Shown: positions 13,423-58,396 of the stretch, piece after piece
Numbering within the stretch: position 1 is the first letter of the stretch
Layout: each line of letters begins with the position of its first letter
From: Thaumarchaeota archaeon UBA141
Lineage (GTDB): Archaea > Thermoproteota > Nitrososphaeria > Nitrososphaerales > UBA141
Assembly: GCA_002495315.1 (NCBI GenBank)
Contig: DAEN01000040.1
Location: forward strand, 51,553 to 115,552
DNA length: 64,000 nt
Reading direction: 5' to 3'
Notes under the pieces: model-generated
What the model was told of the DNA's origin: nothing
The model's database searches: none
The model's input: the letters and a program-made list of their open reading frames with translations, nothing else
Translations under genes and position numbers: made by a program

Positions 13423-13486
13423 TTAACTAAACACAGATTTCATATATCGATAAAGGTTAAGTAAGCTAGACGAACGATAATAACTC

Positions 13487-13603
13487 AGCCGGCCATAGGG
13501 GCGGGGTCCCACCCGGTCTCGTTCCGAACCCGGAAGTTAAACCCGTCACCGCCATCGTGTTAGTGAGGTCCGGAAGGTCTCGCGAAGCGGTGGTGCCGGC
13601 GCC
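13487..13603 (+). rRNA. rrf: 5S ribosomal RNA (not linked to a 16S-23S operon in this window)
   Basis: GCCGGCCAUAGGGGCGGGGUCCCACCCGGUCUCGUUCCGAACCCGGAAGUUAAAC... matches the 5S loop B/C consensus. Terminal GCCGGC/GCCGGC pairing closes helix I. The ends are good to within a few nt. Confidence 0.85.
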
Positions 13604-13715
13604 TCATATTATCATGATTTCTCTTCAAAGAAGAGAGCGCAAAGCTGATAATGGATGACGAATTGGGACTGTTAGAGCGGCAAAATCCCTTAACTTCCAA
13701 AGGTTGTCGCTTAGT

Positions 13716-13808
13716 GGGTCGGTAGCTCAGACAGGTAGAGCATGGGAATGCTCCTAAAGCATCGGGCTTTTAACCCGGGGGTCGCGGGTCCGAATCCCGC
13801 CCGACCCG
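13716..13808 (+). tRNA. tRNA-Lys(UUU) with a 19-nt intron at the D-arm/anticodon-stem junction (non-canonical)
   Basis: Folded by hand. Acceptor is GGGUCGG/CCGACCC, D arm GCUC-AGACAGGUA-GAGC, anticodon arm UCGGG-CUUUUAA-CCCGG and T arm GCGGG-UCCGAAU-CCCGC. The 19 extra nt (UGGGAAUGCUCCUAAAGCA) sit after position ~26, and intron AUGCUC pairs with exon GAGCAU. No CCA is encoded. Confidence 0.85.
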
Positions 13809-18188: not shown

Positions 18189-19067
18189 CTATCTTTCTAG
18201 TCGCAGTTTTCGTACAAGGTTACCTATCGAATATAGTATGAGTGAAGTTATGGTGAGCAAGATACCAATAATTCCTGTTGTAACTGCAATCAAAGATATG
18301 GGTATGCTGAAATAAGCAGATTCATTGTACAATATCAAAGTATACGTAAGGAGGGCAACGCCTAAAGCCATACTTATCAGGCCAGGCAGTCCGAGGTAAA
18401 TTAACGGCCTTCTTTCCACCACAACCCGAAGGATGGCAGCTATTACATGGAAACCTTGGCCTACTACGCTGCGATCTCGGGAGGATCCATCATAACTACA
18501 AGTTATAGGAACTTCAACTATTCGTAATTTTCTTGTTCCAGCATCAAGTAAAATCTGCGAATCAACTCCTAAACCATCTTCAGTCACATTTAGCATGGCT
18601 ATTGTTTGCCTTGTATAGGCTCGAAAACCACTTTGAGTATCAGAAATATTTCGACCAGCAAACCGATTTGTAAAGAAAGAAAGAACCTTGTTACCAAAAG
18701 TACGATGCCTAGGCATTTCTACCTCCTCATTCAAGCGCGAACCGTTAACTATGTCTGCGTCACCATTAAGAAGTGGTTGGATGACCTTCGGGATCTCGTT
18801 AGGATCATGTTGTCCGTCGCCGTCTAGAGTTACAATAATTTCTGCATCCATCTGACGAGATCTCTCGAACAGCGTGCGAAGAGCTGCCCCTTTACCCAGG
18901 TTCTCTGAATGTCTTGCAACCTCTACGCCCAGTGCCTCTGCAATCTCGACTGTCATATCGGTTGATCCGTCATCACAGACTATGACCGCGTTTGAATTCT
19001 TTCTTGCGGCTAATATGACACCTGCTATTGACTTTTCCTCATTGAAAGCAGGTATACAGACAAGCAC
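18189..19067 (-). CDS. GT2 glycosyltransferase, dolichyl-phosphate hexose synthase-like, with C-terminal TM helices
   Basis: 292 aa. LVCIPAFNEEKSI, DDGSTD and LDGDGQHDP are GT-A motifs. Two C-terminal hydrophobic helices follow. Confidence 0.8.
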   Translation of the reverse strand: MLVCIPAFNEEKSIAGVILAARKNSNAVIVCDDGSTDMTVEIAEALGVEVARHSENLGKGAALRTLFERSRQMDAEIIVTLDGDGQHDPNEIPKVIQPLLNGDADIVNGSRLNEEVEMPRHRTFGNKVLSFFTNRFAGRNISDTQSGFRAYTRQTIAMLNVTEDGLGVDSQILLDAGTRKLRIVEVPITCSYDGSSRDRSVVGQGFHVIAAILRVVVERRPLIYLGLPGLISMALGVALLTYTLILYNESAYFSIPISLIAVTTGIIGILLTITSLILYSIGNLVRKLRLER

Positions 19068-19210
19068 TGACCTTTTGTTAAAAGTAGTCGTGGTTCCACC
19101 TATTGTTTGATTTTCATATGATCCTAGTGTGAAGTGATAAAGTCTTCGGCACTAATCTATTTGCTTACTTTTCTTCTGGCTTCTATTATATGAGAGGTAT
19201 TTGATTGAAT

Positions 19211-20287
19211 CTATCTAACATACTTTCGTATAAAGGAGTAATATGCTGTAAAAACTCGGTTAGCAGCATCAGATAGTCCTCGAAAGGCTAAATGGTGAAA
19301 GGTAATGGAAAAGTTATTCATTACCACTCGGTCATCCAAGCGCCGACTAGATTGAATTCGTAATCGTGCAGACGAGAGATACGCACGTGCCCTGATCAAA
19401 TCCGCATAACCTCGAATCTTCCATCCAAGCCAGAATCTAGAAAGAGCCAATAGAAGCATCAACAATTCCACACCAAGCAATAGAGGAAGCAAGAGAACTA
19501 GGGTGTTTTTACGATAATTCTTCAAGACAGTAGCTAGTCTATTACGTTCTAGGAAATAATACTTGGACTCAGACAGACTTGTTACGTGATCATGATATAC
19601 TACAGAAGTGGGTACATAATAGCTTCTCCAACCTAATATCGATCCTCTCCAGCAAAGATCAGTATCTTCATTGTAAATGAAGTAAAAGGGATCCAGGAGA
19701 CCAATAGTCGATAGCGCAGTACGACGAATCAACAAGCACGAGCCCGAGACGTGACCCAGTACTCGAACATTCTCATATTGACCTCGATCAACTTCCCCCA
19801 ATCCTCTGGGGAAACCAAAGCCAAGTAAGTGCGTTTCATTTCCTGCAGAATCAATTATTGGCTTGTTTGATGAGAGAAGGATCTTTGGCTGAAAGAATGC
19901 GCCATTTTTGTGCCTCTTTGCGGCATCTATAAGATGTCCCAACCAATCTGGACTGACCATTGCGTCCTGATTGATCAGTACTATGAATTCATCAGAGGAT
20001 CTCATAATTCCTATGTTGTTACCAGCTGCATAACCAAAATTGTTCTGATTAACAACGATTTCAACACCGGGGAATTTCTTCCTGAGTTCCTCAACGCTTC
20101 CATCAACAGAGGCATTATCGACTACTAGAATTTGTAAATTCGGGTAAACTGATTTGATTAAGGAGTCGACACAAATGATGAGGTCTTTTCCTCCATTGTA
20201 AGCCAGCACAATTGCGGTCACCGTTGGGAATTCATCTAATCGCATAGTTGTTCTCCGAGGCCTAGAGATATGCGATGACGTAAGCAT
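19211..20287 (-). CDS. GT2 glycosyltransferase (rhamnosyltransferase-like)
   Basis: 358 aa with TAIVLAYNGG, VVDNASVDGS and LINQDAMV motifs plus a C-terminal hydrophobic segment. An alternative ATG start lies at 20245. Confidence 0.75.
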   Translation of the reverse strand: MLTSSHISRPRRTTMRLDEFPTVTAIVLAYNGGKDLIICVDSLIKSVYPNLQILVVDNASVDGSVEELRKKFPGVEIVVNQNNFGYAAGNNIGIMRSSDEFIVLINQDAMVSPDWLGHLIDAAKRHKNGAFFQPKILLSSNKPIIDSAGNETHLLGFGFPRGLGEVDRGQYENVRVLGHVSGSCLLIRRTALSTIGLLDPFYFIYNEDTDLCWRGSILGWRSYYVPTSVVYHDHVTSLSESKYYFLERNRLATVLKNYRKNTLVLLLPLLLGVELLMLLLALSRFWLGWKIRGYADLIRARAYLSSARLRIQSSRRLDDRVVMNNFSITFHHLAFRGLSDAANRVFTAYYSFIRKYVR

Positions 20288-20291
20288 GGAG

Positions 20292-20831
20292 CTACCTGTT
20301 TTCCTCTTCGCGTTTGGTTGAGTTATCTCGTGATGATAGAGAGATGAAGACGAATATCACTAGAACTATAGTAAGTACATAATTTGCTGGAGGAGAGAAA
20401 AGAATCCCTATGACTGGTATGGCAAGAAGAATCTTACCATCAATAAATCCTTCCACTGCAGGAAAATCATCTATATTTGGGTTATTGTCGCCTTGTGTTA
20501 TGAATGACATCAATTCCCCTTCTTGGTTAACCTGTACTATTCGATGCACAATAATTTCACCGTGAAAATGTTCAAGACGGTACGCTATGACATCACCAAC
20601 TTTCAACGAGTTAACATCCTCTCCAGTTACAATCAATAGATCAAATGCTTTGAAAGTAGGTTCCATGCTGTCCCCTACTACAACAAGAAGGGGTGCGCCA
20701 GTGCGTGCTACTATGGGTATTGTTGAGAGAGCAATTCCAACAAGCATGGATAGAAGCACTAAGAGAACTAAGTATCGAATAATGCGTTTGTGCAATATAA
20801 TGGCCTGTCGGGCCTGATTATAGGCCGTCAT
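20292..20831 (-). CDS. Signal peptidase I (archaeal/eukaryal Sec11 type, S26B)
   Basis: 179 aa with an N-terminal TM, VVVGDSMEPTF (catalytic Ser box), a HRIV (His) box, GDNN, and a C-terminal TM. Confidence 0.75.
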   Translation of the reverse strand: MTAYNQARQAIILHKRIIRYLVLLVLLSMLVGIALSTIPIVARTGAPLLVVVGDSMEPTFKAFDLLIVTGEDVNSLKVGDVIAYRLEHFHGEIIVHRIVQVNQEGELMSFITQGDNNPNIDDFPAVEGFIDGKILLAIPVIGILFSPPANYVLTIVLVIFVFISLSSRDNSTKREEENR

Positions 20832-20885
20832 GGTGAACTTTTGGGCCTTATAGCCTGCATTGGTAAGGAGTACTTCCCAGTTCTC

Positions 20886-21644
20886 TTAGTTGGTAACTGT
20901 GAAGCTTATCGATTCTGGAGGAGCAAGCGGGGAGAGAGTCACAAAGTCCTCCCAGATGAATATCTCAGCTGTATAGACTCCGGGCTGCATTATTCGGACA
21001 CTCGGGCCAGCTATTCGCTCAGCATTCGATGCTAGCTGGTCAGAAATAATGACTGGGGATGTTATGATCTGGTCATTTGCGTCTTTTACCTGAACTACGT
21101 AGAGAAACGAATTGGAAGAATCGCTATTATTTTGGAGGTTCGCGCTTACGATAATCAAGCTTCCAACTTCAAACTCGGTATCTTTATTTCTGGCGGTATC
21201 AGTTGTCTCTACCTCTGTAACAGCAAACGTTCCAGTACCTGTGGCACTACTACGAATATTTACTTCAAAATTTGCAGTTGCTGGATCTATCTCGTTTCCC
21301 TCGACGGATGTAACTTCAATTTTCACGTCGAATAGTCCACTACTTGGAAATTTGTAGATGAAAGTTGAAGATCCAGCAAGAGCATTAAAGTTCCGTTGAA
21401 GGGCCTGTCCGCCTCCAGGAGTGTTAATGGTTATCGTGTATTGTGATTCTAGAGGTTGTTTAGTGGTAGCATCGTTGATAGAAATCGTTAGGGTGTTTGC
21501 ACGGTCTACAATTGGAACTCGCGGAGAAATTGAAAGGCCAATCTCATATCCACCTACCTGAGAAGTTTCTGCAGAAGCAGTATTTATGATGGGTAGAGAT
21601 AACAATAAGAGTAGAATAATAAAACCAGGAAGTCGTCGAGTCAT
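20886..21644 (-). CDS. Secreted beta-rich protein of unknown function
   Basis: 252 aa with a clear signal peptide (MTRRLPGFIILLLLLSLPIINTASA), then Thr/Ser/Val/Ile-rich sequence that suggests two beta-sandwich domains. There is no C-terminal anchor. Confidence 0.6.
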   Translation of the reverse strand: MTRRLPGFIILLLLLSLPIINTASAETSQVGGYEIGLSISPRVPIVDRANTLTISINDATTKQPLESQYTITINTPGGGQALQRNFNALAGSSTFIYKFPSSGLFDVKIEVTSVEGNEIDPATANFEVNIRSSATGTGTFAVTEVETTDTARNKDTEFEVGSLIIVSANLQNNSDSSNSFLYVVQVKDANDQIITSPVIISDQLASNAERIAGPSVRIMQPGVYTAEIFIWEDFVTLSPLAPPESISFTVTN

Positions 21645-21771
21645 AGTGAACGCATTTAGTTACTCAATTACAAATACTTATGCTAGATATCCAACACAGA
21701 GGACTATTTGTAAAGTGTTATTCTACATAGTTTCCAAAATACAAAAAAACCATGCCTCTGGAGGCCGACCC

Positions 21772-22620
21772 ATGAAAAAGTCTGGGGCACTGGCTCTGAT
21801 TGCCATGAGTCTGTTATTCCTATCTGTTTCGTCGTCTCCTGCATGGTCTGTAGAGACTTTGACTGTGACGGTTGACAAGACGATCTATGCACGAGGTGAA
21901 CTGGTTGAAGTAAGCGGTAGCGTTACAGGGATTTCAACTGAACATGACATTTCCATACAAGTTCTCAAACCAGGAGGCAGTCCATGGAGTTACGCTCAGG
22001 TTACCCCTGAATCAAATGGCAGCTTCCAGTCATCAGTGGCTCGGCTGAGCGAACAAGACCCGTTGGGCCTTTACGAAATTACTGTAAGCTATAGAGGCGA
22101 TCACGCAAAGACTACTTTCTTCCTGCTTGAAGTAAAGAATTTCAATGCGGAGTGGCAAGAGCTAACTTTTCCCGTACAAGTATTATCTAACGCTACAGTT
22201 ACAGGTTTTCAATTTGACCAGCCTTCCAAGCAGATTAGCATAACTGTCGAAGCGACAGCTTCGAGCTTCGTCAATATGACGTTAGCCAATGAACTATTAT
22301 CTGCACCATTTGATGTAACTGTTGACGGAACCTCTGAACAGGGAACAACCTTTTCGCAGGTAAATCAGACACACACTACGATCTCGACGATATTCAACAC
22401 AGGTAGTCATACGATTATTGTTGTAGGTACTAACGTCATCCCAGAGTTCCCAGTATCTACCCTCTTCACGATGGCTGTTGGTGTAGGCATATTTCTATTA
22501 GCTCTCAGATTTGGGCGACGATTGACAAAGGCCGGGGACTACCGGACAGGGACCTCTACAACACCGAGAAGTTTCTCTATCTCACTAAGTTCAGCTTTTA
22601 TTTCTAGAGGGGGCTCATAA
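21772..22620 (+). CDS. Secreted protein with a PEF-CTERM-type (archaeosortase) sorting signal
   Basis: From ATG 21772 there is a signal peptide (MKKSGALALIAMSLLFLSVSSSPAWS), a beta-rich body, and then IPEFPVSTLFTMAVGVGIFLLALRFGRR. The track ORF start (21586) adds 62 implausible residues. Confidence 0.7.
   Translation: MKKSGALALIAMSLLFLSVSSSPAWSVETLTVTVDKTIYARGELVEVSGSVTGISTEHDISIQVLKPGGSPWSYAQVTPESNGSFQSSVARLSEQDPLGLYEITVSYRGDHAKTTFFLLEVKNFNAEWQELTFPVQVLSNATVTGFQFDQPSKQISITVEATASSFVNMTLANELLSAPFDVTVDGTSEQGTTFSQVNQTHTTISTIFNTGSHTIIVVGTNVIPEFPVSTLFTMAVGVGIFLLALRFGRRLTKAGDYRTGTSTTPRSFSISLSSAFISRGGS
22441..22521 (+). other. Tripartite C-terminal sorting signal (PEF motif + TM helix + Arg cluster)
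   Basis: This segment encodes PEFPVSTLFTMAVGVGIFLLALRFGRR. Its architecture matches exosortase/archaeosortase recognition domains. Confidence 0.6.
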
Positions 22621-23789
22621 GTATGTGTCACTGCGTCGGGATCTTTTAATCCATGACCCGTGGCAACACATACTATTCTGTCACTTCTAGAAATCATTCC
22701 CGCATTTAACATCTTTTTCAAAGCAGCTATGGGACTAGCACTGGCTGGCTCTACAAAAAGGCCCTCATAGCGCGCTAGGAGTCTCTGAGCAGTCAGAATC
22801 TCTTCATCACTTACGATCTCTGCTCCACCATTAGATCCATAGATTGCCCTTAGGGCCTTCTTCCAACTAATGGGTGCTCCAATACGTATGGCTGTAGCAA
22901 TTGTTTCTGGTGCATCTTTCATGATAATATCTTTACGTCCTTTCTTCACTGACTCAGCAATTGGTGCAGCACCTTCTGCCTGAACTCCAAATAGCCTTGG
23001 CAATTTCTCTAGGAAACCTAGAGAATTGAGTTCACTGAAGCCTTTCCAAATCGCGCTAATGTTCCCAGCGTTGCCCACAGGTGTTACCAGGACATCGGGC
23101 TCTGTTCCCATCGATTGTTCCCAGACTTCATAGGCCAAGGTCTTCTGTCCTTCCAAACGAAAAGGGTTTACTGAATTTAGTAGATACGCCTCTTTATGAC
23201 GTCGACAGAGCTGGAAGACCAGATTTAGTGCCTCATCGAAGTTCCCTTGGACTTGAACTACCAATGCACCATGTATCATAGCTTGGGCGAGCTTTCCAAA
23301 AGCAATTTTTCCAGTGGGAATTAGGACGACGCAGCGGAGCCCCGCACGGGCAGTATAAGCTGCTAACGAGGCGGAAGTGTTACCAGTAGAAGCACAGACA
23401 ACTGTCCTGACGCCGATTTCTAGAGCCCTAGTAACTCCTACTGTCATTCCCCTATCCTTAAAGGAACCAGTCGGATTCTCGCCCTCGTTCTTGACATATA
23501 GGTGCGGAAGTCCAAGTTCTTCTCCTAAGCGCTTACATTCATAGAGATTTGTGCCGCCTTCTCCCAAGGTTATTTCAGTCCGGTTATTACCTACTGGTAT
23601 GAGCTCGCGGTATCTCCAAACTCCAAAACGCCGCTTTTCCCACGCAGACCTATCAATCTGTTTAGATAAGACTGGAAGGTCGTATACAACTTCCAGCAAA
23701 TCCCCACATTCTTTACACTGATATCTCTCTTCAGCTAGTGGCCAGGACTTGCCACAACCTATGCACTGGAGCCTAGACCACATCATCAA
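22539..23789 (-). CDS. thrC: Threonine synthase
   Basis: 416 aa with an N-terminal zinc-ribbon-like LQCIGCGK...YQCKECG and PTGSFKDRG (PLP lysine). Confidence 0.9.
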   Translation of the reverse strand: MMMWSRLQCIGCGKSWPLAEERYQCKECGDLLEVVYDLPVLSKQIDRSAWEKRRFGVWRYRELIPVGNNRTEITLGEGGTNLYECKRLGEELGLPHLYVKNEGENPTGSFKDRGMTVGVTRALEIGVRTVVCASTGNTSASLAAYTARAGLRCVVLIPTGKIAFGKLAQAMIHGALVVQVQGNFDEALNLVFQLCRRHKEAYLLNSVNPFRLEGQKTLAYEVWEQSMGTEPDVLVTPVGNAGNISAIWKGFSELNSLGFLEKLPRLFGVQAEGAAPIAESVKKGRKDIIMKDAPETIATAIRIGAPISWKKALRAIYGSNGGAEIVSDEEILTAQRLLARYEGLFVEPASASPIAALKKMLNAGMISRSDRIVCVATGHGLKDPDAVTHTYEPPLEIKAELSEIEKLLGVVEVPVR

Positions 23790-30055: not shown

Positions 30056-30571
30056 CTATGTTCCTGAGTAGTCGAGTGGTGCACTTTCTCCTTTCCTTCT
30101 CGATAAGTAGGAAATAAAACCCAACAACAAGATTGTCCAGGCAAGAGAAGTTAGTATGTGTGGCAGACTTGCATATAGGAACGGAGCTGCCTCACTAACC
30201 TGGATCTGGATGGTCTTTATTCTCCCCCTGAGATCATCCATGCCTTGTTGGTAACCATCGCTATTTCTTGGAAGCTTCTGAAGCATTCGGCCTCTCTCAA
30301 GAAGCTCATTCAAGTCATTATTGATTAGCCTAAAATTGGTTTTATCAGTTGGAAAGATCCATACAGGGTTGCCTTCTGTTGGCAGGAATTTTCTACCTGA
30401 ATCCATGTAGAGTACCACTCCCTCAGCAAACCCGGCTGTTTCTGCCCTACTGAATAGAGCATTTGCTCGTTCGAGTGCGTAAATCGTGTCGACATAAGCT
30501 AGATAGGCCAGGATTCCCCCAGACGCAGTAAGAACTATGAAAATTGCTCCGACAACTATGAGTCTATTCAT
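30056..30571 (-). CDS. Bitopic membrane protein of unknown function (operon partner of the GT2 synthase)
   Basis: 171 aa with an N-terminal TM (LIVVGAIFIVLTASGGILAYLAY), a ~110-aa hydrophilic domain and a C-terminal TM (ILTSLAWTILLLGFISYL). Its ATG overlaps the upstream stop (ATGA). Confidence 0.5.
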   Translation of the reverse strand: MNRLIVVGAIFIVLTASGGILAYLAYVDTIYALERANALFSRAETAGFAEGVVLYMDSGRKFLPTEGNPVWIFPTDKTNFRLINNDLNELLERGRMLQKLPRNSDGYQQGMDDLRGRIKTIQIQVSEAAPFLYASLPHILTSLAWTILLLGFISYLSRRKGESAPLDYSGT

Positions 30572-32055
30572 GGGCCAAGATTTCCTAGGGTATTGGGATT
30601 CTCAATTTCTTCTTTCTCCTTCGTCATTCCTAACTTTAGGGAATGTATGAAGGTCATAGAAGCTATATAGAGGAATCCTGAAGTTGTCAGCAAGAGATAG
30701 GGTAAATAAAGAAAATTACGTGAGAAGATCGCTGCGGATATTCCAACACATCCATAGATCGCCAAGAGGAGCTCTAGAAAAGTAAGTTTGGGGAAACGAA
30801 GGACATAGTCTTTATCCTTCCAGTTATCACCGCCCGATTGAACTGCAAATTTCGGAGTCCTAAGGAAGGGACTTTTCCTTCCTAGAAGCCCTTCAATGAA
30901 TCCCACGCCATTATTTAATGAAATGCCAGAGCTGAAAAGCATCAATAATATGTAATCTCCTAGTTTTCGAAATGATTCTTTTCCCCAAAAGTGATGTAAT
31001 GCGAAGACATAGATAATCGGCCCGAGCAAGAGCTGAGAAACTATTGCAGTTACTGGAAAAATATCATACCGCATAGTCATTAAGAGCGGAAGGATGAGGA
31101 ACTGAAGAAGGAGTAGAGGATGAACTATATGTCTAGTCAACTGTAGAGAAGCTTGAATCTTAGTTTTTAGACTCAGCTCAGCTCTTGCCATTTGTCCTAG
31201 GAGTCGAACTGTACATTGTCCAGCACCTTTAGCCCACCTGAAATGTTGCCTCTTAGCAGCATTCACTTGGACAGGCAGCTCCGCAGGACAGGTGACGTCA
31301 TCTAGGAAGACTAGTCGCCATCCTCTGAGCTGAGCCCGATAGCTCAGATCTAAATCTTCGGCTAGAGCATCTTGCCATCCTCCTGCATCGACTATGCATT
31401 CCTTTCGCCAGATCCCCGCGGTTCCATTAAAATTCATAAAAAGCTCACATCCACTTCTCGCTCTCTGTTCAATTAAGAAATGCAGATCGAGATTGAGTGC
31501 TTGTGCTCGCGTAAGGGTAGAATAATGCTGGTTAAGGTGACTCCATCGAGCTTGAATTAGACCTACGTCTTGTCCATTAAATCGAGTGATAGTCTGACGA
31601 AGAAAGTTACTAGGTGGCAAGAAATCGGCATCAAATATGGCAATAAACTCACCATTTGCCTTCTCAAGCCCATATCGGAGTGCTCCAGCTTTGAATCCGC
31701 TCCGGGTGCTTCTATGTAGATATTCTATCATGAAACCCTGTTTCTTCCAATATCTAACCTGCTCTTGACTGAGATCTCTGGTCGAGTCGGTAGAGTCATC
31801 CAGGACCTGAATTTGTAAGCGATCCTTTGGATAGTCGAAAGCGCATATAGCTGCTATGAGTCTATTTGCTACATAACGCTCGTTGAATATTGGAAGCTGG
31901 ACAGTTACAAAAGGAAGGTCCATTGCCGCATTTCCTGTCGACAGCGGCTTTTTGTATCGAGATGAACGGTATAGAAGGTAATAAAAATTGAAGGCATATA
32001 GAAAAAGGACCCATGAGACCGCTGCATAGATGTAGAAGAGTAGATCAGCGTTCAT
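30568..32055 (-). CDS. Integral-membrane processive GT2 beta-glycan synthase (CslA/cellulose-synthase-like)
   Basis: 495 aa with an N-terminal TM, then VQLPIFNERYV, VLDDSTDST, FDADFLP, LAEDLDLSYR and RQHFRWAKG (the D,D,D,QxxRW set), followed by a C-terminal multi-TM block. Confidence 0.8.
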   Translation of the reverse strand: MNADLLFYIYAAVSWVLFLYAFNFYYLLYRSSRYKKPLSTGNAAMDLPFVTVQLPIFNERYVANRLIAAICAFDYPKDRLQIQVLDDSTDSTRDLSQEQVRYWKKQGFMIEYLHRSTRSGFKAGALRYGLEKANGEFIAIFDADFLPPSNFLRQTITRFNGQDVGLIQARWSHLNQHYSTLTRAQALNLDLHFLIEQRARSGCELFMNFNGTAGIWRKECIVDAGGWQDALAEDLDLSYRAQLRGWRLVFLDDVTCPAELPVQVNAAKRQHFRWAKGAGQCTVRLLGQMARAELSLKTKIQASLQLTRHIVHPLLLLQFLILPLLMTMRYDIFPVTAIVSQLLLGPIIYVFALHHFWGKESFRKLGDYILLMLFSSGISLNNGVGFIEGLLGRKSPFLRTPKFAVQSGGDNWKDKDYVLRFPKLTFLELLLAIYGCVGISAAIFSRNFLYLPYLLLTTSGFLYIASMTFIHSLKLGMTKEKEEIENPNTLGNLGP

Positions 32056-33091
32056 ATTGAGTTCCTTTTGTTGTAGTTTGCAAAGCCTTTTTCGGTATAT
32101 CGAGTCTAGTTTTCCTGGTTTCTATGAATGTTACTGCAAATAGAAAAATAGCTAACCATGGTAGAAACAACAACTCTCCCGCTACCGCATGAAAACTCTC
32201 AAAGCTTCTGTTATCAGTGCTAACAAGCATGACATAGGTAGATAGCAAAAAGATGCGAAAGGCATTGACCATGAACGTCCCTATGGCTCCTGCAACGAAG
32301 TAAGTTATCTTCTTTGGAAAACGGATATCTAATTTTAGTAGAAAAATCGACATGATAAGTGAATATATGATCATGCTGTGCACTCCAGCCGAAGGCCAAA
32401 AGACAGCTAGAGTAAACGGCCCGTGATTACCTGTGAGAGTTATGTAGTTCCCCACTACAATTGCTTCTCCAATTCCAAATAGATGTATTAGAAAGACATC
32501 GATAGAAAGGAGGACTGGGACTATCGCTTGCAATGGACCAAGAGATTCGAACGGGAATAAAGCATCCAGAGCCAAGATGATTATGAATCCAGCTATGTAG
32601 ACCATACATGACGGCATCTTTCTTAGACTCTTCCATCCGTATGAGGCGGATATGACTACAGCTAAATACAGCAGAAGAACAAGGTAATCCCAGAGCCAAA
32701 GGAAACTACTTGAGAGCTGGATATTAAGAAACTCTCCAAGTTCTAGAATTCTGGTTTGCAACGGGCCTAGTTCAATAGAAGAAAAATAGGCAAGGGAAAA
32801 TACCAGAGATGAAAGGACCAATACCATTCGTTTTCCTCTTAGTATGAGCCTTAGCTGGTGTCTTGCATCAAAGTATTCAATCATCAAGAAGATAGCTGCA
32901 AAAATGAATCCTCCTCGTCCCTGGTTCCAAACGAGTCCAAAGGAACTCGGATTAATCACACTTACGAATAGAACTGGAAAAATTGCCAAGAGGAGCCAAT
33001 ATTCCTTGTCGCGGCGCTCGATGAATCTTCTTCTGAATGTAGCGGGGAATAATTTCATTCTCCCCATCATTTCCTCGATCAAATCATTCAA
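32045..33091 (-). CDS. Exosortase/archaeosortase-family membrane protein with Ser at the expected catalytic Cys position
   Basis: 348 aa, polytopic. The motifs ..LAVFWPSAGVHSMIIY.. (for CSGxxS), ..MVNAFRIFLLS.. (conserved Arg) and ..FESFHAVAGE.. (conserved His) appear in family order, with about 45 and 22 aa between them. Confidence 0.6.
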   Translation of the reverse strand: MNDLIEEMMGRMKLFPATFRRRFIERRDKEYWLLLAIFPVLFVSVINPSSFGLVWNQGRGGFIFAAIFLMIEYFDARHQLRLILRGKRMVLVLSSLVFSLAYFSSIELGPLQTRILELGEFLNIQLSSSFLWLWDYLVLLLYLAVVISASYGWKSLRKMPSCMVYIAGFIIILALDALFPFESLGPLQAIVPVLLSIDVFLIHLFGIGEAIVVGNYITLTGNHGPFTLAVFWPSAGVHSMIIYSLIMSIFLLKLDIRFPKKITYFVAGAIGTFMVNAFRIFLLSTYVMLVSTDNRSFESFHAVAGELLFLPWLAIFLFAVTFIETRKTRLDIPKKALQTTTKGTQYER

Positions 33092-33287: not shown

Positions 33288-33379
33288 GCCCCAGTAGCTC
33301 AGCCTGGCCAGAGCGGCTGATAATCTCTTAGCCGAGCCTCGTAAGCAGCAGGCCGCGAGTTCAAGTCTCGCCTGGGGCT
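33288..33379 (+). tRNA. tRNA-Thr(CGU) with a 17-nt intron inside the 5' half of the anticodon stem (non-canonical)
   Basis: Folded by hand. Acceptor is GCCCCAG/CUGGGGC, D arm GCUC..GAGC and T arm GCGAG-UUCAAGU-CUCGC. Removing AUAAUCUCUUAGCCGAG gives anticodon arm GCUGC-CUCGUAA-GCAGC. Intron AGCCG pairs with exon CGGCU. No CCA is encoded. Confidence 0.8.
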
Positions 33380-51642: not shown

Positions 51643-51745
51643 GCGGGGGTTGCCAAGCCAGGTCAAAGGCGCGAGGCTCAGGTGCTCAGTTTGCTAAGTC
51701 ACCTCGTCTCTTAGGGGTCCGTGGGTTCAAATCCCACCCCCCGCA
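51643..51745 (+). tRNA. tRNA-Leu(CAG), class II, with an 18-nt canonical (37/38) intron
   Basis: Acceptor is GCGGGGG/CCCCCGC and the anticodon arm is CGAGG-CUCAGG[UGCUCAGUUUGCUAAGUC]A-CCUCG. There is a long variable arm and a T arm GUGGG-UUCAAAU-CCCAC. No CCA is encoded. Confidence 0.85.
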
Positions 51746-57782: not shown

Positions 57783-57883
57783 CGCCGGGGGTGGGATTTG
57801 AACCCACGGGACCCCGAAAGGTCACAAGCTATCGAGATAACGCTTTTCCAGGCTTGCGCCCCACCAGACTAGGCGACCCCGGC
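57783..57883 (-). tRNA. tRNA-Ser(GGA), class II, with a 15-nt canonical intron
   Basis: The reverse complement folds as acceptor GCCGGGG/CCCCGGC and anticodon arm CAAGC-CUGGAA[AAGCGUUAUCUCGAU]A-GCUUG, with a long variable arm and T arm GUGGG-UUCAAAU-CCCAC. Confidence 0.85.
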
Positions 57884-58081: not shown

Positions 58082-58396
58082 GGCGGTAGCTCAGCCGGAG
58101 TTCCCATAGGGCTGGGCCCAATCTCCACCCGTGCGAGGTCCTCCACGTAGACGCGACAGCACAGCCACCTCATCTTAGGGCTGCTCCCTCCCGGACCTGG
58201 CCCGGTTCGACGATTGAGAGTCAAACCCTTCCCTTCGGAAGGATTGCTCCTTGCGACCGCCCATCGCGGCGTGGGTTCATACCAGCTTGGATGGCAGGAA
58301 TTCCAGCTCCCGTGGTTTACCCGCCTGTTACTGACCCCTGCGTGTAGCCGGTTTCAGGTAAGGGAGACGGCTACCCTCCCAGTCCTACCTACCGCC
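58082..58396 (-). ncRNA. ffs: Signal recognition particle RNA (archaeal 7S RNA)
   Basis: ~315-nt GC-rich block closed by GGCGGUAG/CUACCGCC. The minus strand contains CCAGGUCCGGGAGGGAGCAGCC (helix-8 SRP54-binding motif with a GGGA tetraloop) and a CCUGAAACCGG Alu-domain-like segment. An AAATATA box lies about 25 nt upstream. Confidence 0.85.

What the first reader, a model, noticed from the sequence alone, without database searches (positions are those of the whole stretch)
21772..22620. PEF-CTERM cargo protein with an atypical 32-aa tail running antisense into thrC
Seen in sequence: a signal peptide, about 220 aa of beta-rich sequence, and then IPEF-PVSTLFTMAVGVGIFLLALRF-GRR (22441-22521). 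This is the motif + helix + basic cluster layout of exosortase/archaeosortase sorting signals. Such domains normally end within a few residues of the basic cluster. Here the frame continues for 32 more codons (LTKAGDYRTG...ISRGGS) and overlaps the 3' end of convergent thrC by 82 nt. The motif reads PEFP, not the PEFG form I recall for thaumarchaeal cargo.
Inference: this is a likely substrate of the sortase-like enzyme at 32045..33091. The tail may be a stop-loss extension or may be removed along with the anchor.
Basis: partly seen in the sequence, partly recalled or inferred. Interest (0 to 1): 0.6.

Follow-up and report, generated by a model that had tools for sequence, protein, structure and literature searches.

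The report
Sortase cargo protein with read-on tail
A small secreted surface protein of an uncultured marine thaumarchaeon carries a PEF-type "cut here and anchor" signal for a sortase-like enzyme encoded 9 kb away, and its odd 32-residue extra tail is most simply a harmless read-on into the back of the neighbouring threonine synthase gene.

Summary
ORF 21772..22620(+) encodes 282 aa: signal peptide, two Ig-like beta-sandwiches, I-PEF-P, an 18-20 aa hydrophobic helix, R246/R249/R250, then 32 more codons. It overlaps convergent thrC (22539..23789, -) by 82 nt.

The gene at 32045..33091(-) passes the curated thaumarchaeosortase model. Full-length homologues of the cargo carry bona fide PEFG-CTERM domains at the same position. 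The window's PEFP signal fails every curated CTERM model, yet PEFP is the commonest form among homologues.

The tail is atypical. Motif-to-end is 59 aa against a median of 34 (110 homologues) and 28 (79 metagenome loci, maximum 51). It matches nothing and is predicted disordered. It is present at full length in every complete member of the two known lineages (88-100% identity).

Selection on the tail is not needed to explain it. thrC has normal length. In this antisense frame a stop can only form opposite a thrC Tyr, or opposite a T-ending codon followed by His/Gln. thrC's last 25 residues contain none of these. One thrC-silent base at 22542 decides whether the cargo would stop 7 aa after RR, where relatives stop.

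Verdict: an ordinary archaeosortase-type cargo with a probably neutral 3' extension. Processing is untested.

The parts
21772..22620 (+). Cargo gene, 282 aa plus stop: a secreted two-domain surface protein with a PEF-type C-terminal sorting signal and an extra tail.
   Evidence: ORF. An identical or 88-91% identical 282-aa product occurs in 16 other contigs. There are 1451 HMMER relatives.
21772..21849 (+). Signal-peptide-like N-terminus (residues 1-26: KK, hydrophobic core, AWS|VE).
   Evidence: Read directly from the sequence. Modelled as helix 5-17. Aligns with the N-termini of homologues. No signal-peptide predictor was available.
21853..22428 (+). Two Ig-like/MG-like beta-sandwich domains (residues about 28-118 and 120-219).
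   Evidence: AlphaFold pLDDT 83-96. Foldseek matches Fab and complement MG domains. Sub-threshold Pfam MG2 hit, E=5e-5.
22441..22449 (+). PEF signature motif (P224-E225-F226), within GT-N-V-I-PEF-P.
   Evidence: P224, E225 and F226 are invariant in the 13-sequence alignment that includes PEFG-CTERM proteins. The motif is shared by 110 of the 150 best hits.
22453..22521 (+). Hydrophobic helix V228-L245/F247 followed by the basic cluster R246, R249, R250.
   Evidence: Sequence. Modelled as helix 228-249.
22522..22617 (+). 32-codon tail LTKAGDYRTGTSTTPRSFSISLSSAFISRGGS. It is lineage-specific, predicted disordered and probably non-functional.
   Evidence: pLDDT 36-38. Nearly all of the 150 listed matches end by query residue ~256 and none extends past 264. 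Homologues stop 7-10 aa after the basic cluster.
22539..22620 (.). 82-nt tail-to-tail overlap of cargo and thrC. Third codon positions of the two frames coincide. The cargo stop TAA (22618-22620) is the antisense of thrC codons ACT-TAT (Thr-Tyr).
22540..22542 (+). Cargo codon 258, TAC (TAT in other lineages). Base 22542 is the wobble base of thrC's last codon. An A or G here would be silent in thrC (CGT or CGC) and would give TAA or TAG, ending the cargo 7 aa after RR. This is the candidate ancestral stop position (inference).
   Evidence: Sequences of 6 haplotypes. Codon table. Homologue end points.
22539..23789 (-). thrC (threonine synthase), of normal length with a conserved C-terminus.
   Evidence: TIGR00260 351 bits, PALP 260 bits. 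80 relatives end at the equivalent of residue 410-425, mode 419, against 416 here.
32045..33091 (-). Thaumarchaeosortase, the presumed processing enzyme. The likely true start is the ATG near 33061 (MKLFP...).
   Evidence: TIGR04297 256.7 bits (cut-off 250) and TIGR04178 37.9 bits. Homologues named thaumarchaeosortase. Invariant S233, R278 and H300 are retained.
30568..32055 (-). Family-2 glycosyltransferase gene overlapping the 3' end of the sortase gene by 11 nt. Probably one operon.
20292..20831 (-). Archaeal signal peptidase I, two genes from the cargo in a conserved neighbourhood (GT2-GT2-SPase-252-aa secreted protein | cargo | thrC-thrB-malic enzyme).
   Evidence: TIGR02228 98 bits. Synteny in 15 or more contigs.

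Best explanation
The gene encodes a Sec-exported surface protein made of two Ig-like domains. Its PEFP + transmembrane helix + Arg cluster is a divergent member of the PEF/PEFG class of archaeosortase sorting signals.

By analogy with ArtA in Haloferax, the thaumarchaeosortase encoded 9.4 kb away is expected to cut at or near PEF. It would then attach the new C-terminus to a membrane lipid and discard the helix and everything after it.

The 32-aa tail is a lineage-specific read-on. Relatives stop 7-10 aa after the basic cluster. Here the gene abuts convergent thrC with no spacer and has no stop at that point, so translation runs into the antisense of thrC.

In this frame the wobble positions of the two genes coincide. 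A stop can only arise opposite a thrC Tyr codon, or opposite a T-ending codon followed by His or Gln. thrC's last 25 residues have none of these, so the frame cannot close until thrC's Thr-Tyr (ACT-TAT gives TAA).

The tail is cytoplasmic, disordered and removed with the anchor, so it is tolerated. Its apparent conservation is borrowed from thrC.

Shown: the anatomy, the homology, the identity of the sortase, the rarity of such a tail and the frame logic. Inferred: cleavage and lipidation, neutrality of the tail, and the single-base origin at 22542.
For: Identity as a sortase cargo:
- The sortase passes TIGR04297 and TIGR04178. It groups with named thaumarchaeosortases.
- Full-length collinear homologues carry curated PEFG-CTERM domains at the same columns, and P, E and F are invariant.
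- 110 of the 150 best of 1451 relatives end in GT.V[IV]PEF + helix + basic residues.

The tail looks non-functional:
- The tail is an outlier: 59 aa from motif to end, against medians of 34 and 28.
- It has no match in any hit and pLDDT of about 37.
- thrC has normal length, so the overlap is due to the cargo alone.
- Stop density in this antisense frame is 3.7%. 33% of long ORFs are open for 26 or more codons there. The mean open run across thrC is 32 codons.
- thrC's last 27 codons evolve like the rest of thrC: non/syn 3/5 against 37/91.
- The three amino-acid changes in the overlap are conservative in thrC (K>R, L>V, S>G). In the tail they are F>L, S>T and L>P.
- Both substitutions in the 6 non-overlapping tail codons are non-synonymous.

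Precedent for processing despite a tail:
- ArtA cleaves HVO_0405, a fused gene whose tripartite signal lies centrally (PMC7157517; PMC9263693).
Against: - The signal fails all curated CTERM models. PEFG-CTERM gives 9-12.6 bits against a cut-off of 25, there is no TIGR03024 hit, and Loki-CTERM gives 15 bits against 19.9.
- No other cargo from this genome was available, so it is not shown that PEFP is what this sortase recognises.
- The tail is kept at full length in every complete sequence seen. Low diversity and the thrC constraint explain this, but selection cannot be excluded.
- The non/syn comparison of tail against body has no power (Fisher p=0.18-0.68).
- No outgroup between 38% and 88% identity exists to show where the ancestral stop was.
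- No thaumarchaeosortase has been characterised biochemically. The family appears to lack the catalytic Cys of ArtA.
Confidence: 0.68

Rival explanations
1. The hydrophobic segment is a permanent stop-transfer anchor. The protein would be a type I membrane protein with a short cytoplasmic tail and would not be processed by the sortase. This could be because PEFP is a decayed signal or because the extension interferes.
For: The signal scores below the cut-off of every curated sorting-domain model. The tail is longer than in about 98% of relatives. The sortase gene is 9.4 kb away and not in the same operon.
Against: The P-E-F and GT.VIPEF context is invariant and identical to that of hundreds of relatives. 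PEFP is the majority form. A sortase of the matching family is present. ArtA tolerates large C-terminal additions (PMC7157517).
Confidence: 0.15
2. The tail is a selected, functional cytoplasmic extension. It might act as a docking, retention or timing signal for sorting.
For: The tail is retained at full length in all complete sequences from three sub-lineages and 6 or more haplotypes.
Against: It has no homologue outside the lineage and is predicted disordered. Its reading frame is forced open by thrC's amino-acid sequence, with only one thrC-silent route to a stop. The non-overlapping codons change non-synonymously. Other sporadic long tails in the family (P0073, P0076, P0095, P0110, P0112, P0122) are unrelated in sequence.
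Confidence: 0.07
3. The overlap matters at the RNA level. Convergent transcription across 82 or more nt would couple or antagonise expression of thrC and the surface protein. The protein tail would be a by-product.
For: No intrinsic-terminator-like site is found in 21500..23000 on either strand. Transcripts must therefore overlap. The arrangement is conserved.
Against: The terminator scan is bacterial-type and uninformative for archaea. There is no expression data. Conservation is explained by recent common ancestry (88% identity or more).
Confidence: 0.05
4. Artefact: an assembly or sequencing frameshift, or a gene-calling error, creates the apparent tail.
For: The gene appears to be missing from the GenBank annotation of the MAG. 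Accessions MAH21242, 21243 and 21244 for thrC, the 252-aa protein and the signal peptidase are consecutive, and there is no nr entry for the cargo.
Against: The same frame, stop and overlap occur in independent assemblies from many samples and assemblers (Tara, Logan, ENA, JGI) and in lineages 9-12% divergent. 3' ends are fixed by stop codons, not by gene callers.
Confidence: 0.02

Closest known systems
PEFG-CTERM sorting domain (TIGR04296) with thaumarchaeosortase (TIGR04297), in Nitrososphaerota
   Same: The partner enzyme passes the thaumarchaeosortase model. Full-length homologues of the cargo are annotated PEFG-CTERM proteins. The layout is the same (motif, helix, basic residues) and sits at the same alignment columns.
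   Different: The motif reads PEFP, not PEFG. The helix is not the Ala/Ile/Val-rich 'AIAAIVLAVAIVGII' type. The HMM score is 9-12.6 bits against a cut-off of 25. The ORF continues for 32 aa instead of 7-10 aa after the basic residues.
PEF-CTERM (TIGR03024) with archaeosortase C (TIGR03762)
   Same: It has the PEF signature and tripartite layout. PEFP-type relatives score 9-22.7 bits on TIGR03024, just under its cut-off of 23.
   Different: The window signal gives no TIGR03024 hit at E<=10. The local enzyme scores only 34.7 bits against 100 on the ArtC model.
Haloferax volcanii HVO_0405, an ArtA substrate whose tripartite PGF signal is not at the C-terminus
   Same: The sorting signal is followed by extra sequence that arose by a gene-boundary accident. 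In HVO_0405 this was a fusion of two genes. ArtA still cleaves it (PMC7157517; PMC9263693).
   Different: It belongs to a different sortase class and motif (PGF/ArtA). Its extension is a whole domain rather than 32 residues of antisense-derived sequence. Processing there is experimentally shown, and here it is not.
Long convergent (tail-to-tail) gene overlaps in prokaryotes
   Same: There are two bona fide genes whose stop codons lie inside each other's coding sequence. The extension ends at the first stop available in the neighbour's antisense frame.
   Different: 82 nt is long for a convergent overlap (my own knowledge, not tested here). Here the frame relation (wobble on wobble) and the neighbour's residue composition fully explain the length.

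Membership tests
PEFG-CTERM sorting domain (TIGR04296) | Score at or above the curated HMM cut-off (25 bits). | tested here: not met
   9.0 bits and 12.6 bits, matching profile positions 1-12/14 only. Homologues P0066, P0088, P0101 and P0111 score 31-34 bits.
PEFG-CTERM sorting domain (TIGR04296) | Tripartite layout: signature motif, hydrophobic helix, basic cluster. | tested here: met
   P224-E225-F226, V228-L245, R246/R249/R250. Modelled helix 228-249.
PEFG-CTERM sorting domain (TIGR04296) | Lies at the extreme C-terminus (protein ends within about 10 aa of the basic residues). | tested here: not met
   32 aa follow R250. Aligned homologues end 7-10 aa after it, one at 18. Motif-to-end is 59 against medians of 34 and 28.
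PEFG-CTERM sorting domain (TIGR04296) | Co-occurrence with a thaumarchaeosortase in the same genome. | tested here: met
   32045..33091(-) scores 256.7 bits on TIGR04297, cut-off 250. It is on the same contig, 9.4 kb away.
PEFG-CTERM sorting domain (TIGR04296) | N-terminal signal peptide (exported substrate). | tested here: inconclusive
   The sequence has the KK, hydrophobic core and AWS|VE pattern, and aligns with homologue N-termini. No dedicated predictor was available.
PEFG-CTERM sorting domain (TIGR04296) | Sortase-dependent C-terminal cleavage and anchoring. | not testable with these tools
   Needs proteomics or genetics. Only the ArtA/PGF-CTERM system has been tested experimentally (PMC7157517, PMC9263693).
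PEF-CTERM (TIGR03024) / archaeosortase C | Score at or above the curated HMM cut-off (23 bits), with an ArtC partner (TIGR03762, 100 bits). | tested here: not met
   No TIGR03024 hit at E<=10 for the window signal. The local enzyme scores 34.7 bits on TIGR03762.
Thaumarchaeosortase (TIGR04297), for the enzyme at 32045..33091 | Scores at or above the curated cut-off, carries the exo/archaeosortase signature, and keeps the family's invariant residues. | tested here: met
   256.7 bits against 250 and 37.9 bits against 23. 43-51% identity to named thaumarchaeosortases. All 60 or more invariant columns, including S233, R278 and H300, are kept.
Threonine synthase (TIGR00260), for the overlapped gene | Equivalog HMM score and normal C-terminal length. 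| tested here: met
   351.4 bits against 167. 416 aa, against homologue end points at 410-425.

The most novel reading that the evidence does not exclude
The tail, or the 82-nt convergent overlap that creates it, is maintained by selection in this uncultured marine thaumarchaeal lineage. One possibility is a cytoplasmic extension that delays or gates thaumarchaeosortase processing. Another is an antisense link between threonine biosynthesis and surface-protein expression. In either case the PEFP signal would mark a substrate class of a Cys-less (Ser-type) sortase distinct from the curated PEFG system.
Probability: 0.07. Interest if true: 0.55.

Novelty: new member of a known kind. Interest (0 to 1): 0.25.

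Why it matters
The practical value is for annotation.

- A real, widely sampled surface-protein gene seems to be absent from the GenBank annotation of its MAG, probably because of the long overlap.
- Its sorting signal, like most PEFP-type relatives, is missed by all curated CTERM models. Surveys of archaeosortase cargo in non-ammonia-oxidising or deep-branching Nitrososphaerota will therefore undercount substrates.

It is also a clean worked example of how a long convergent overlap and an apparently conserved protein tail can arise without selection. The neighbour's amino-acid sequence forbids stop codons in one antisense frame.

It does not open a new mechanism.

Tried and rejected
- Synteny search: I looked for the cargo downstream of thrC in 80 genome loci of thrC relatives. 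These were at most 63% identical (Bathyarchaeia and Nitrososphaeria MAGs). None had a cargo homologue there, so no outgroup locus was found.
- Word-indexed search with the C-terminal domain plus signal found nothing (9 candidates, none significant).
The 6-sequence alignment worked but returned only relatives at 39% identity or less. Again no intermediate orthologue turned up to polarise the stop loss.
- Non/syn tests for selection on the tail are underpowered and confounded, because wobble positions coincide in the two frames.
- The bacterial-type promoter and terminator scan was uninformative.
- The neighbouring 252-aa secreted protein is not detectably related to the cargo.
- I suspected that thrC in the sister lineage was decaying, because L001 has a 36-nt deletion. 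Two other contigs of that lineage have intact 416-aa thrC, so I rejected this.
- The literature library has no paper that uses the word thaumarchaeosortase and only a few that mention PEFG-CTERM.
- I could not confirm that the organism belongs to the 'heterotrophic marine Thaumarchaeota'.

Full report
**Observation.** The ORF at 21772..22620(+) is real and reads as the first-stage reader described. Its parts are:
- a signal-peptide-like N-terminus, residues 1-26, ending AWS|VE;
- about 195 residues of beta-rich sequence;
- GT-N-V-I223-P224-E225-F226-P227;
- a hydrophobic stretch, V228-L245;
- R246, R249 and R250, ending at 22521;
- 32 further codons, 22522..22617, before TAA.

thrC lies on the other strand at 22539..23789 (TIGR00260 351 bits). 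The two genes overlap tail to tail by 82 nt. The only correction to the coordinates is that 22441 is the P of PEF; the I codon starts at 22438.

**What the protein is.** AlphaFold, run on a 13-sequence alignment, gives two confident beta-sandwiches (30-118 and 120-219, pLDDT 83-96). These are followed by a low-confidence linker containing PEF, a helix at 228-249 and an unstructured tail with pLDDT about 37. Foldseek finds only generic tandem Ig-like folds, such as Fabs and complement MG domains. This agrees with a sub-threshold Pfam MG2 hit.

An exhaustive HMMER search of 1.84 billion representatives finds 1451 relatives. Of the best 150, 110 end in GT.V[IV]-PEF + hydrophobic helix + basic residues. 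Among these, PEFP is the commonest form (73) and PEFG is second (14). PEFP is therefore not an oddity of this gene.

Four full-length collinear homologues of 270-282 aa (P0066, P0088, P0101, P0111) pass the curated PEFG-CTERM model at 31-34 bits (cut-off 25). Their sources name them PEFG-CTERM proteins of Nitrososphaerales. In the alignment, P, E and F are invariant and the window's signal occupies the same columns.

The window signal itself fails all curated models. PEFG-CTERM gives 9-12.6 bits, there is no PEF-CTERM (TIGR03024) hit, and Loki-CTERM gives 15 bits against 19.9. It works like, and is homologous to, a PEFG-CTERM domain. By the curated test it is not a member.

**The enzyme.** The gene at 32045..33091(-) passes the thaumarchaeosortase model (256.7 bits against 250) and the exo/archaeosortase signature (37.9 against 23). 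Outside its own lineage its nearest relatives are thaumarchaeosortases of Nitrosopumilales and Nitrosotalea at 43-51% identity. It keeps every invariant column of a 14-sequence alignment. It overlaps a family-2 glycosyltransferase gene by 11 nt. It is 9.4 kb from the cargo and not in its operon, which is usual for sortase systems with dispersed substrates.

**Organism.** Exact matches of window proteins are GenBank MAG proteins labelled Thaumarchaeota/Nitrososphaerota archaeon (MAH212xx, locus tags CMO12_). In a sister MAG they are labelled Candidatus Bathyarchaeota. Many Tara Oceans mesopelagic contigs also match. thrC's best matches among GTDB species representatives are only 63% identical, so the lineage is deep-branching and poorly represented.

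**The tail is atypical.** From the P of PEF to the end is 59 aa.
- Among the 110 motif-bearing relatives the median is 34, the IQR 32-38 and the 95th percentile about 50. Only two reach 59 or more.
- Among 79 independent JGI metagenome loci the median is 28 and the maximum 51.
- Aligned full-length homologues stop 7-10 aa after the basic cluster, and one stops at 18.
- Nearly all of the 150 listed hits end their match by query residue ~256, and none extends beyond residue 264.
- A handful of relatives also have long, mutually unrelated tails: P0073, P0076, P0095, P0110, P0112 and P0122. Such read-ons therefore occur sporadically and are tolerated in this family.

**It is not an artefact.** The same 282-aa product, the same stop and the same 82-nt overlap are found in 16 further contigs. 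These come from different samples and assemblers. Together with the window they give at least six haplotypes in three sub-lineages, down to 88% protein identity.

**Why the frame stays open.** thrC is not the unusual partner. At 416 aa it sits within the 410-425 range of 80 relatives, and its C-terminal EKPxEV...IExxLG motif is conserved.

The cargo frame is the antisense frame in which third codon positions of the two genes coincide. In that frame a stop requires thrC to read (N-N-T/C)(T-A-N) or (N-N-T)(C-A-N). That means a Tyr codon, or a His or Gln codon after a T-ending codon. thrC's last 25 residues (EPPLEIKAELSEIEKLLGVVEVPVR) contain no Tyr, His or Gln. The cargo's TAA is the antisense of thrC's ACT-TAT (Thr-Tyr).

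Across the window this frame has a stop density of only 3.7%. One third of the 45 long ORFs are open for 26 or more codons from their 3' end, and the mean open run through thrC is 32 codons. Once the cargo frame enters thrC, a read-on of about 26 codons is therefore the expected outcome.

The only thrC-silent route to an earlier stop is base 22542, which is the wobble base of thrC's last codon. It is C or T in all haplotypes, giving cargo TAC or TAT and thrC CGG, CGA or CCA. An A or G there would give TAA or TAG. The cargo would then end at ...GRRLTKAGD, seven residues after RR, which is where relatives end. This makes a single-base origin plausible. It remains an inference, because no orthologue between 38% and 88% identity exists in any collection searched.

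**Is the tail under selection?** The data cannot tell, and nothing requires it.
- thrC's last 27 codons evolve like the rest of thrC: non/syn 3/5 against 37/91.
- The three amino-acid changes in the overlap are conservative in thrC (K>R, L>V, S>G). In the tail they are F>L, S>T and L>P.
- Both substitutions in the six tail codons outside thrC are non-synonymous.
- Fisher tests of tail against body are non-significant, p=0.18-0.68.

**Mechanism.** ArtA of Haloferax volcanii cleaves the PGF-CTERM tripartite signal and transfers the new C-terminus to a lipid, releasing the C-terminal peptide (PMC7157517; PMC9263693). By analogy, the thaumarchaeosortase would remove the helix and the tail together.

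There is a direct precedent for tolerance of extra C-terminal sequence. HVO_0405 arose by fusion of two genes and has a centrally located tripartite signal, and ArtA still cleaves it (PMC7157517; PMC9263693). A 32-aa cytoplasmic, disordered extension should therefore be harmless. None of this has been tested for any thaumarchaeosortase.

**Rivals.**
- A permanent stop-transfer anchor that is never processed (0.15).
- A functional tail (0.07).
- An RNA-level role for the overlap (0.05).
- An artefact (0.02).

**Verdict.** This is a PEF-type archaeosortase cargo with a lineage-specific, probably neutral read-on tail. The length of the tail is dictated by the residue composition of thrC's C-terminus. 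It is a new member of a known kind. Its interest is modest and lies mainly in annotation and in showing how long convergent overlaps arise.

Noticed in passing
window 32045..33091 (-), residues 230-321 of the product: None of 14 aligned thaumarchaeosortases has an invariant Cys, and the signature region of the window enzyme contains no Cys at all. The invariant residues are W231-P232-S233-A234-G235, R278 and H300. ArtA catalysis depends on Cys173 through a thioester intermediate (PMC9263693, PMC7157517). This family may therefore use Ser as its nucleophile. I could not verify that the positions are equivalent, because no ArtA sequence was at hand.
   Followed up: partly
window 21772..22620 (+): The cargo gene appears to be unannotated in the GenBank MAG. 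thrC, the 252-aa protein (CMO12_00325) and the signal peptidase have consecutive accessions (MAH21242, 21243, 21244). The cargo's exact sequence has no nr accession, although gene callers of other resources find it. The 82-nt overlap is the probable cause.
   Followed up: partly
L001 about 880-890, equivalent to window 22629..22664: One contig of the sister lineage has a 36-nt in-frame deletion in thrC. It removes ATGHGLKDPDAV, a conserved motif just upstream of the overlap. Two other contigs of the same lineage (L095, L096) have an intact 416-aa thrC. The deletion is therefore a private variant or an assembly error.
   Followed up: yes
relatives P0005, P0006, P0014, P0039, P0061, P0136 and others: PEFP-type sorting signals are the majority among this protein's relatives: 73 of the 110 motif-bearing hits among the 150 best. 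They score just below or well below the cut-offs of PEF-CTERM, PEFG-CTERM, Loki-CTERM and Heimdall-CTERM. A sizeable class of archaeal sorting signals seems to lack a curated model.
   Followed up: partly
window 18189..21644 (-): A conserved block lies next to the cargo: two family-2 glycosyltransferases, an archaeal signal peptidase I (TIGR02228) and a 252-aa secreted protein with a signal peptide but no anchor. The 252-aa protein is not detectably related to the cargo. The block may be a small cell-surface biogenesis neighbourhood.
   Followed up: partly
window 13716..13808, 33288..33379, 51643..51745, 57783..57883: Four tRNA matches are 92-103 nt long, which is longer than the 71-position model and suggests archaeal introns. 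There is also a 5S rRNA at 13485..13604 and an archaeal SRP RNA at 58084..58394.
   Followed up: no
window 21586..21771 (+): The stop-to-stop ORF allows an upstream ATG at 21586, giving 344 aa, and some gene callers used it or another upstream start (P0157, P0158). Homologue alignment, the signal peptide and a GGAGG 10 nt upstream all support 21772 as the true start.
   Followed up: yes
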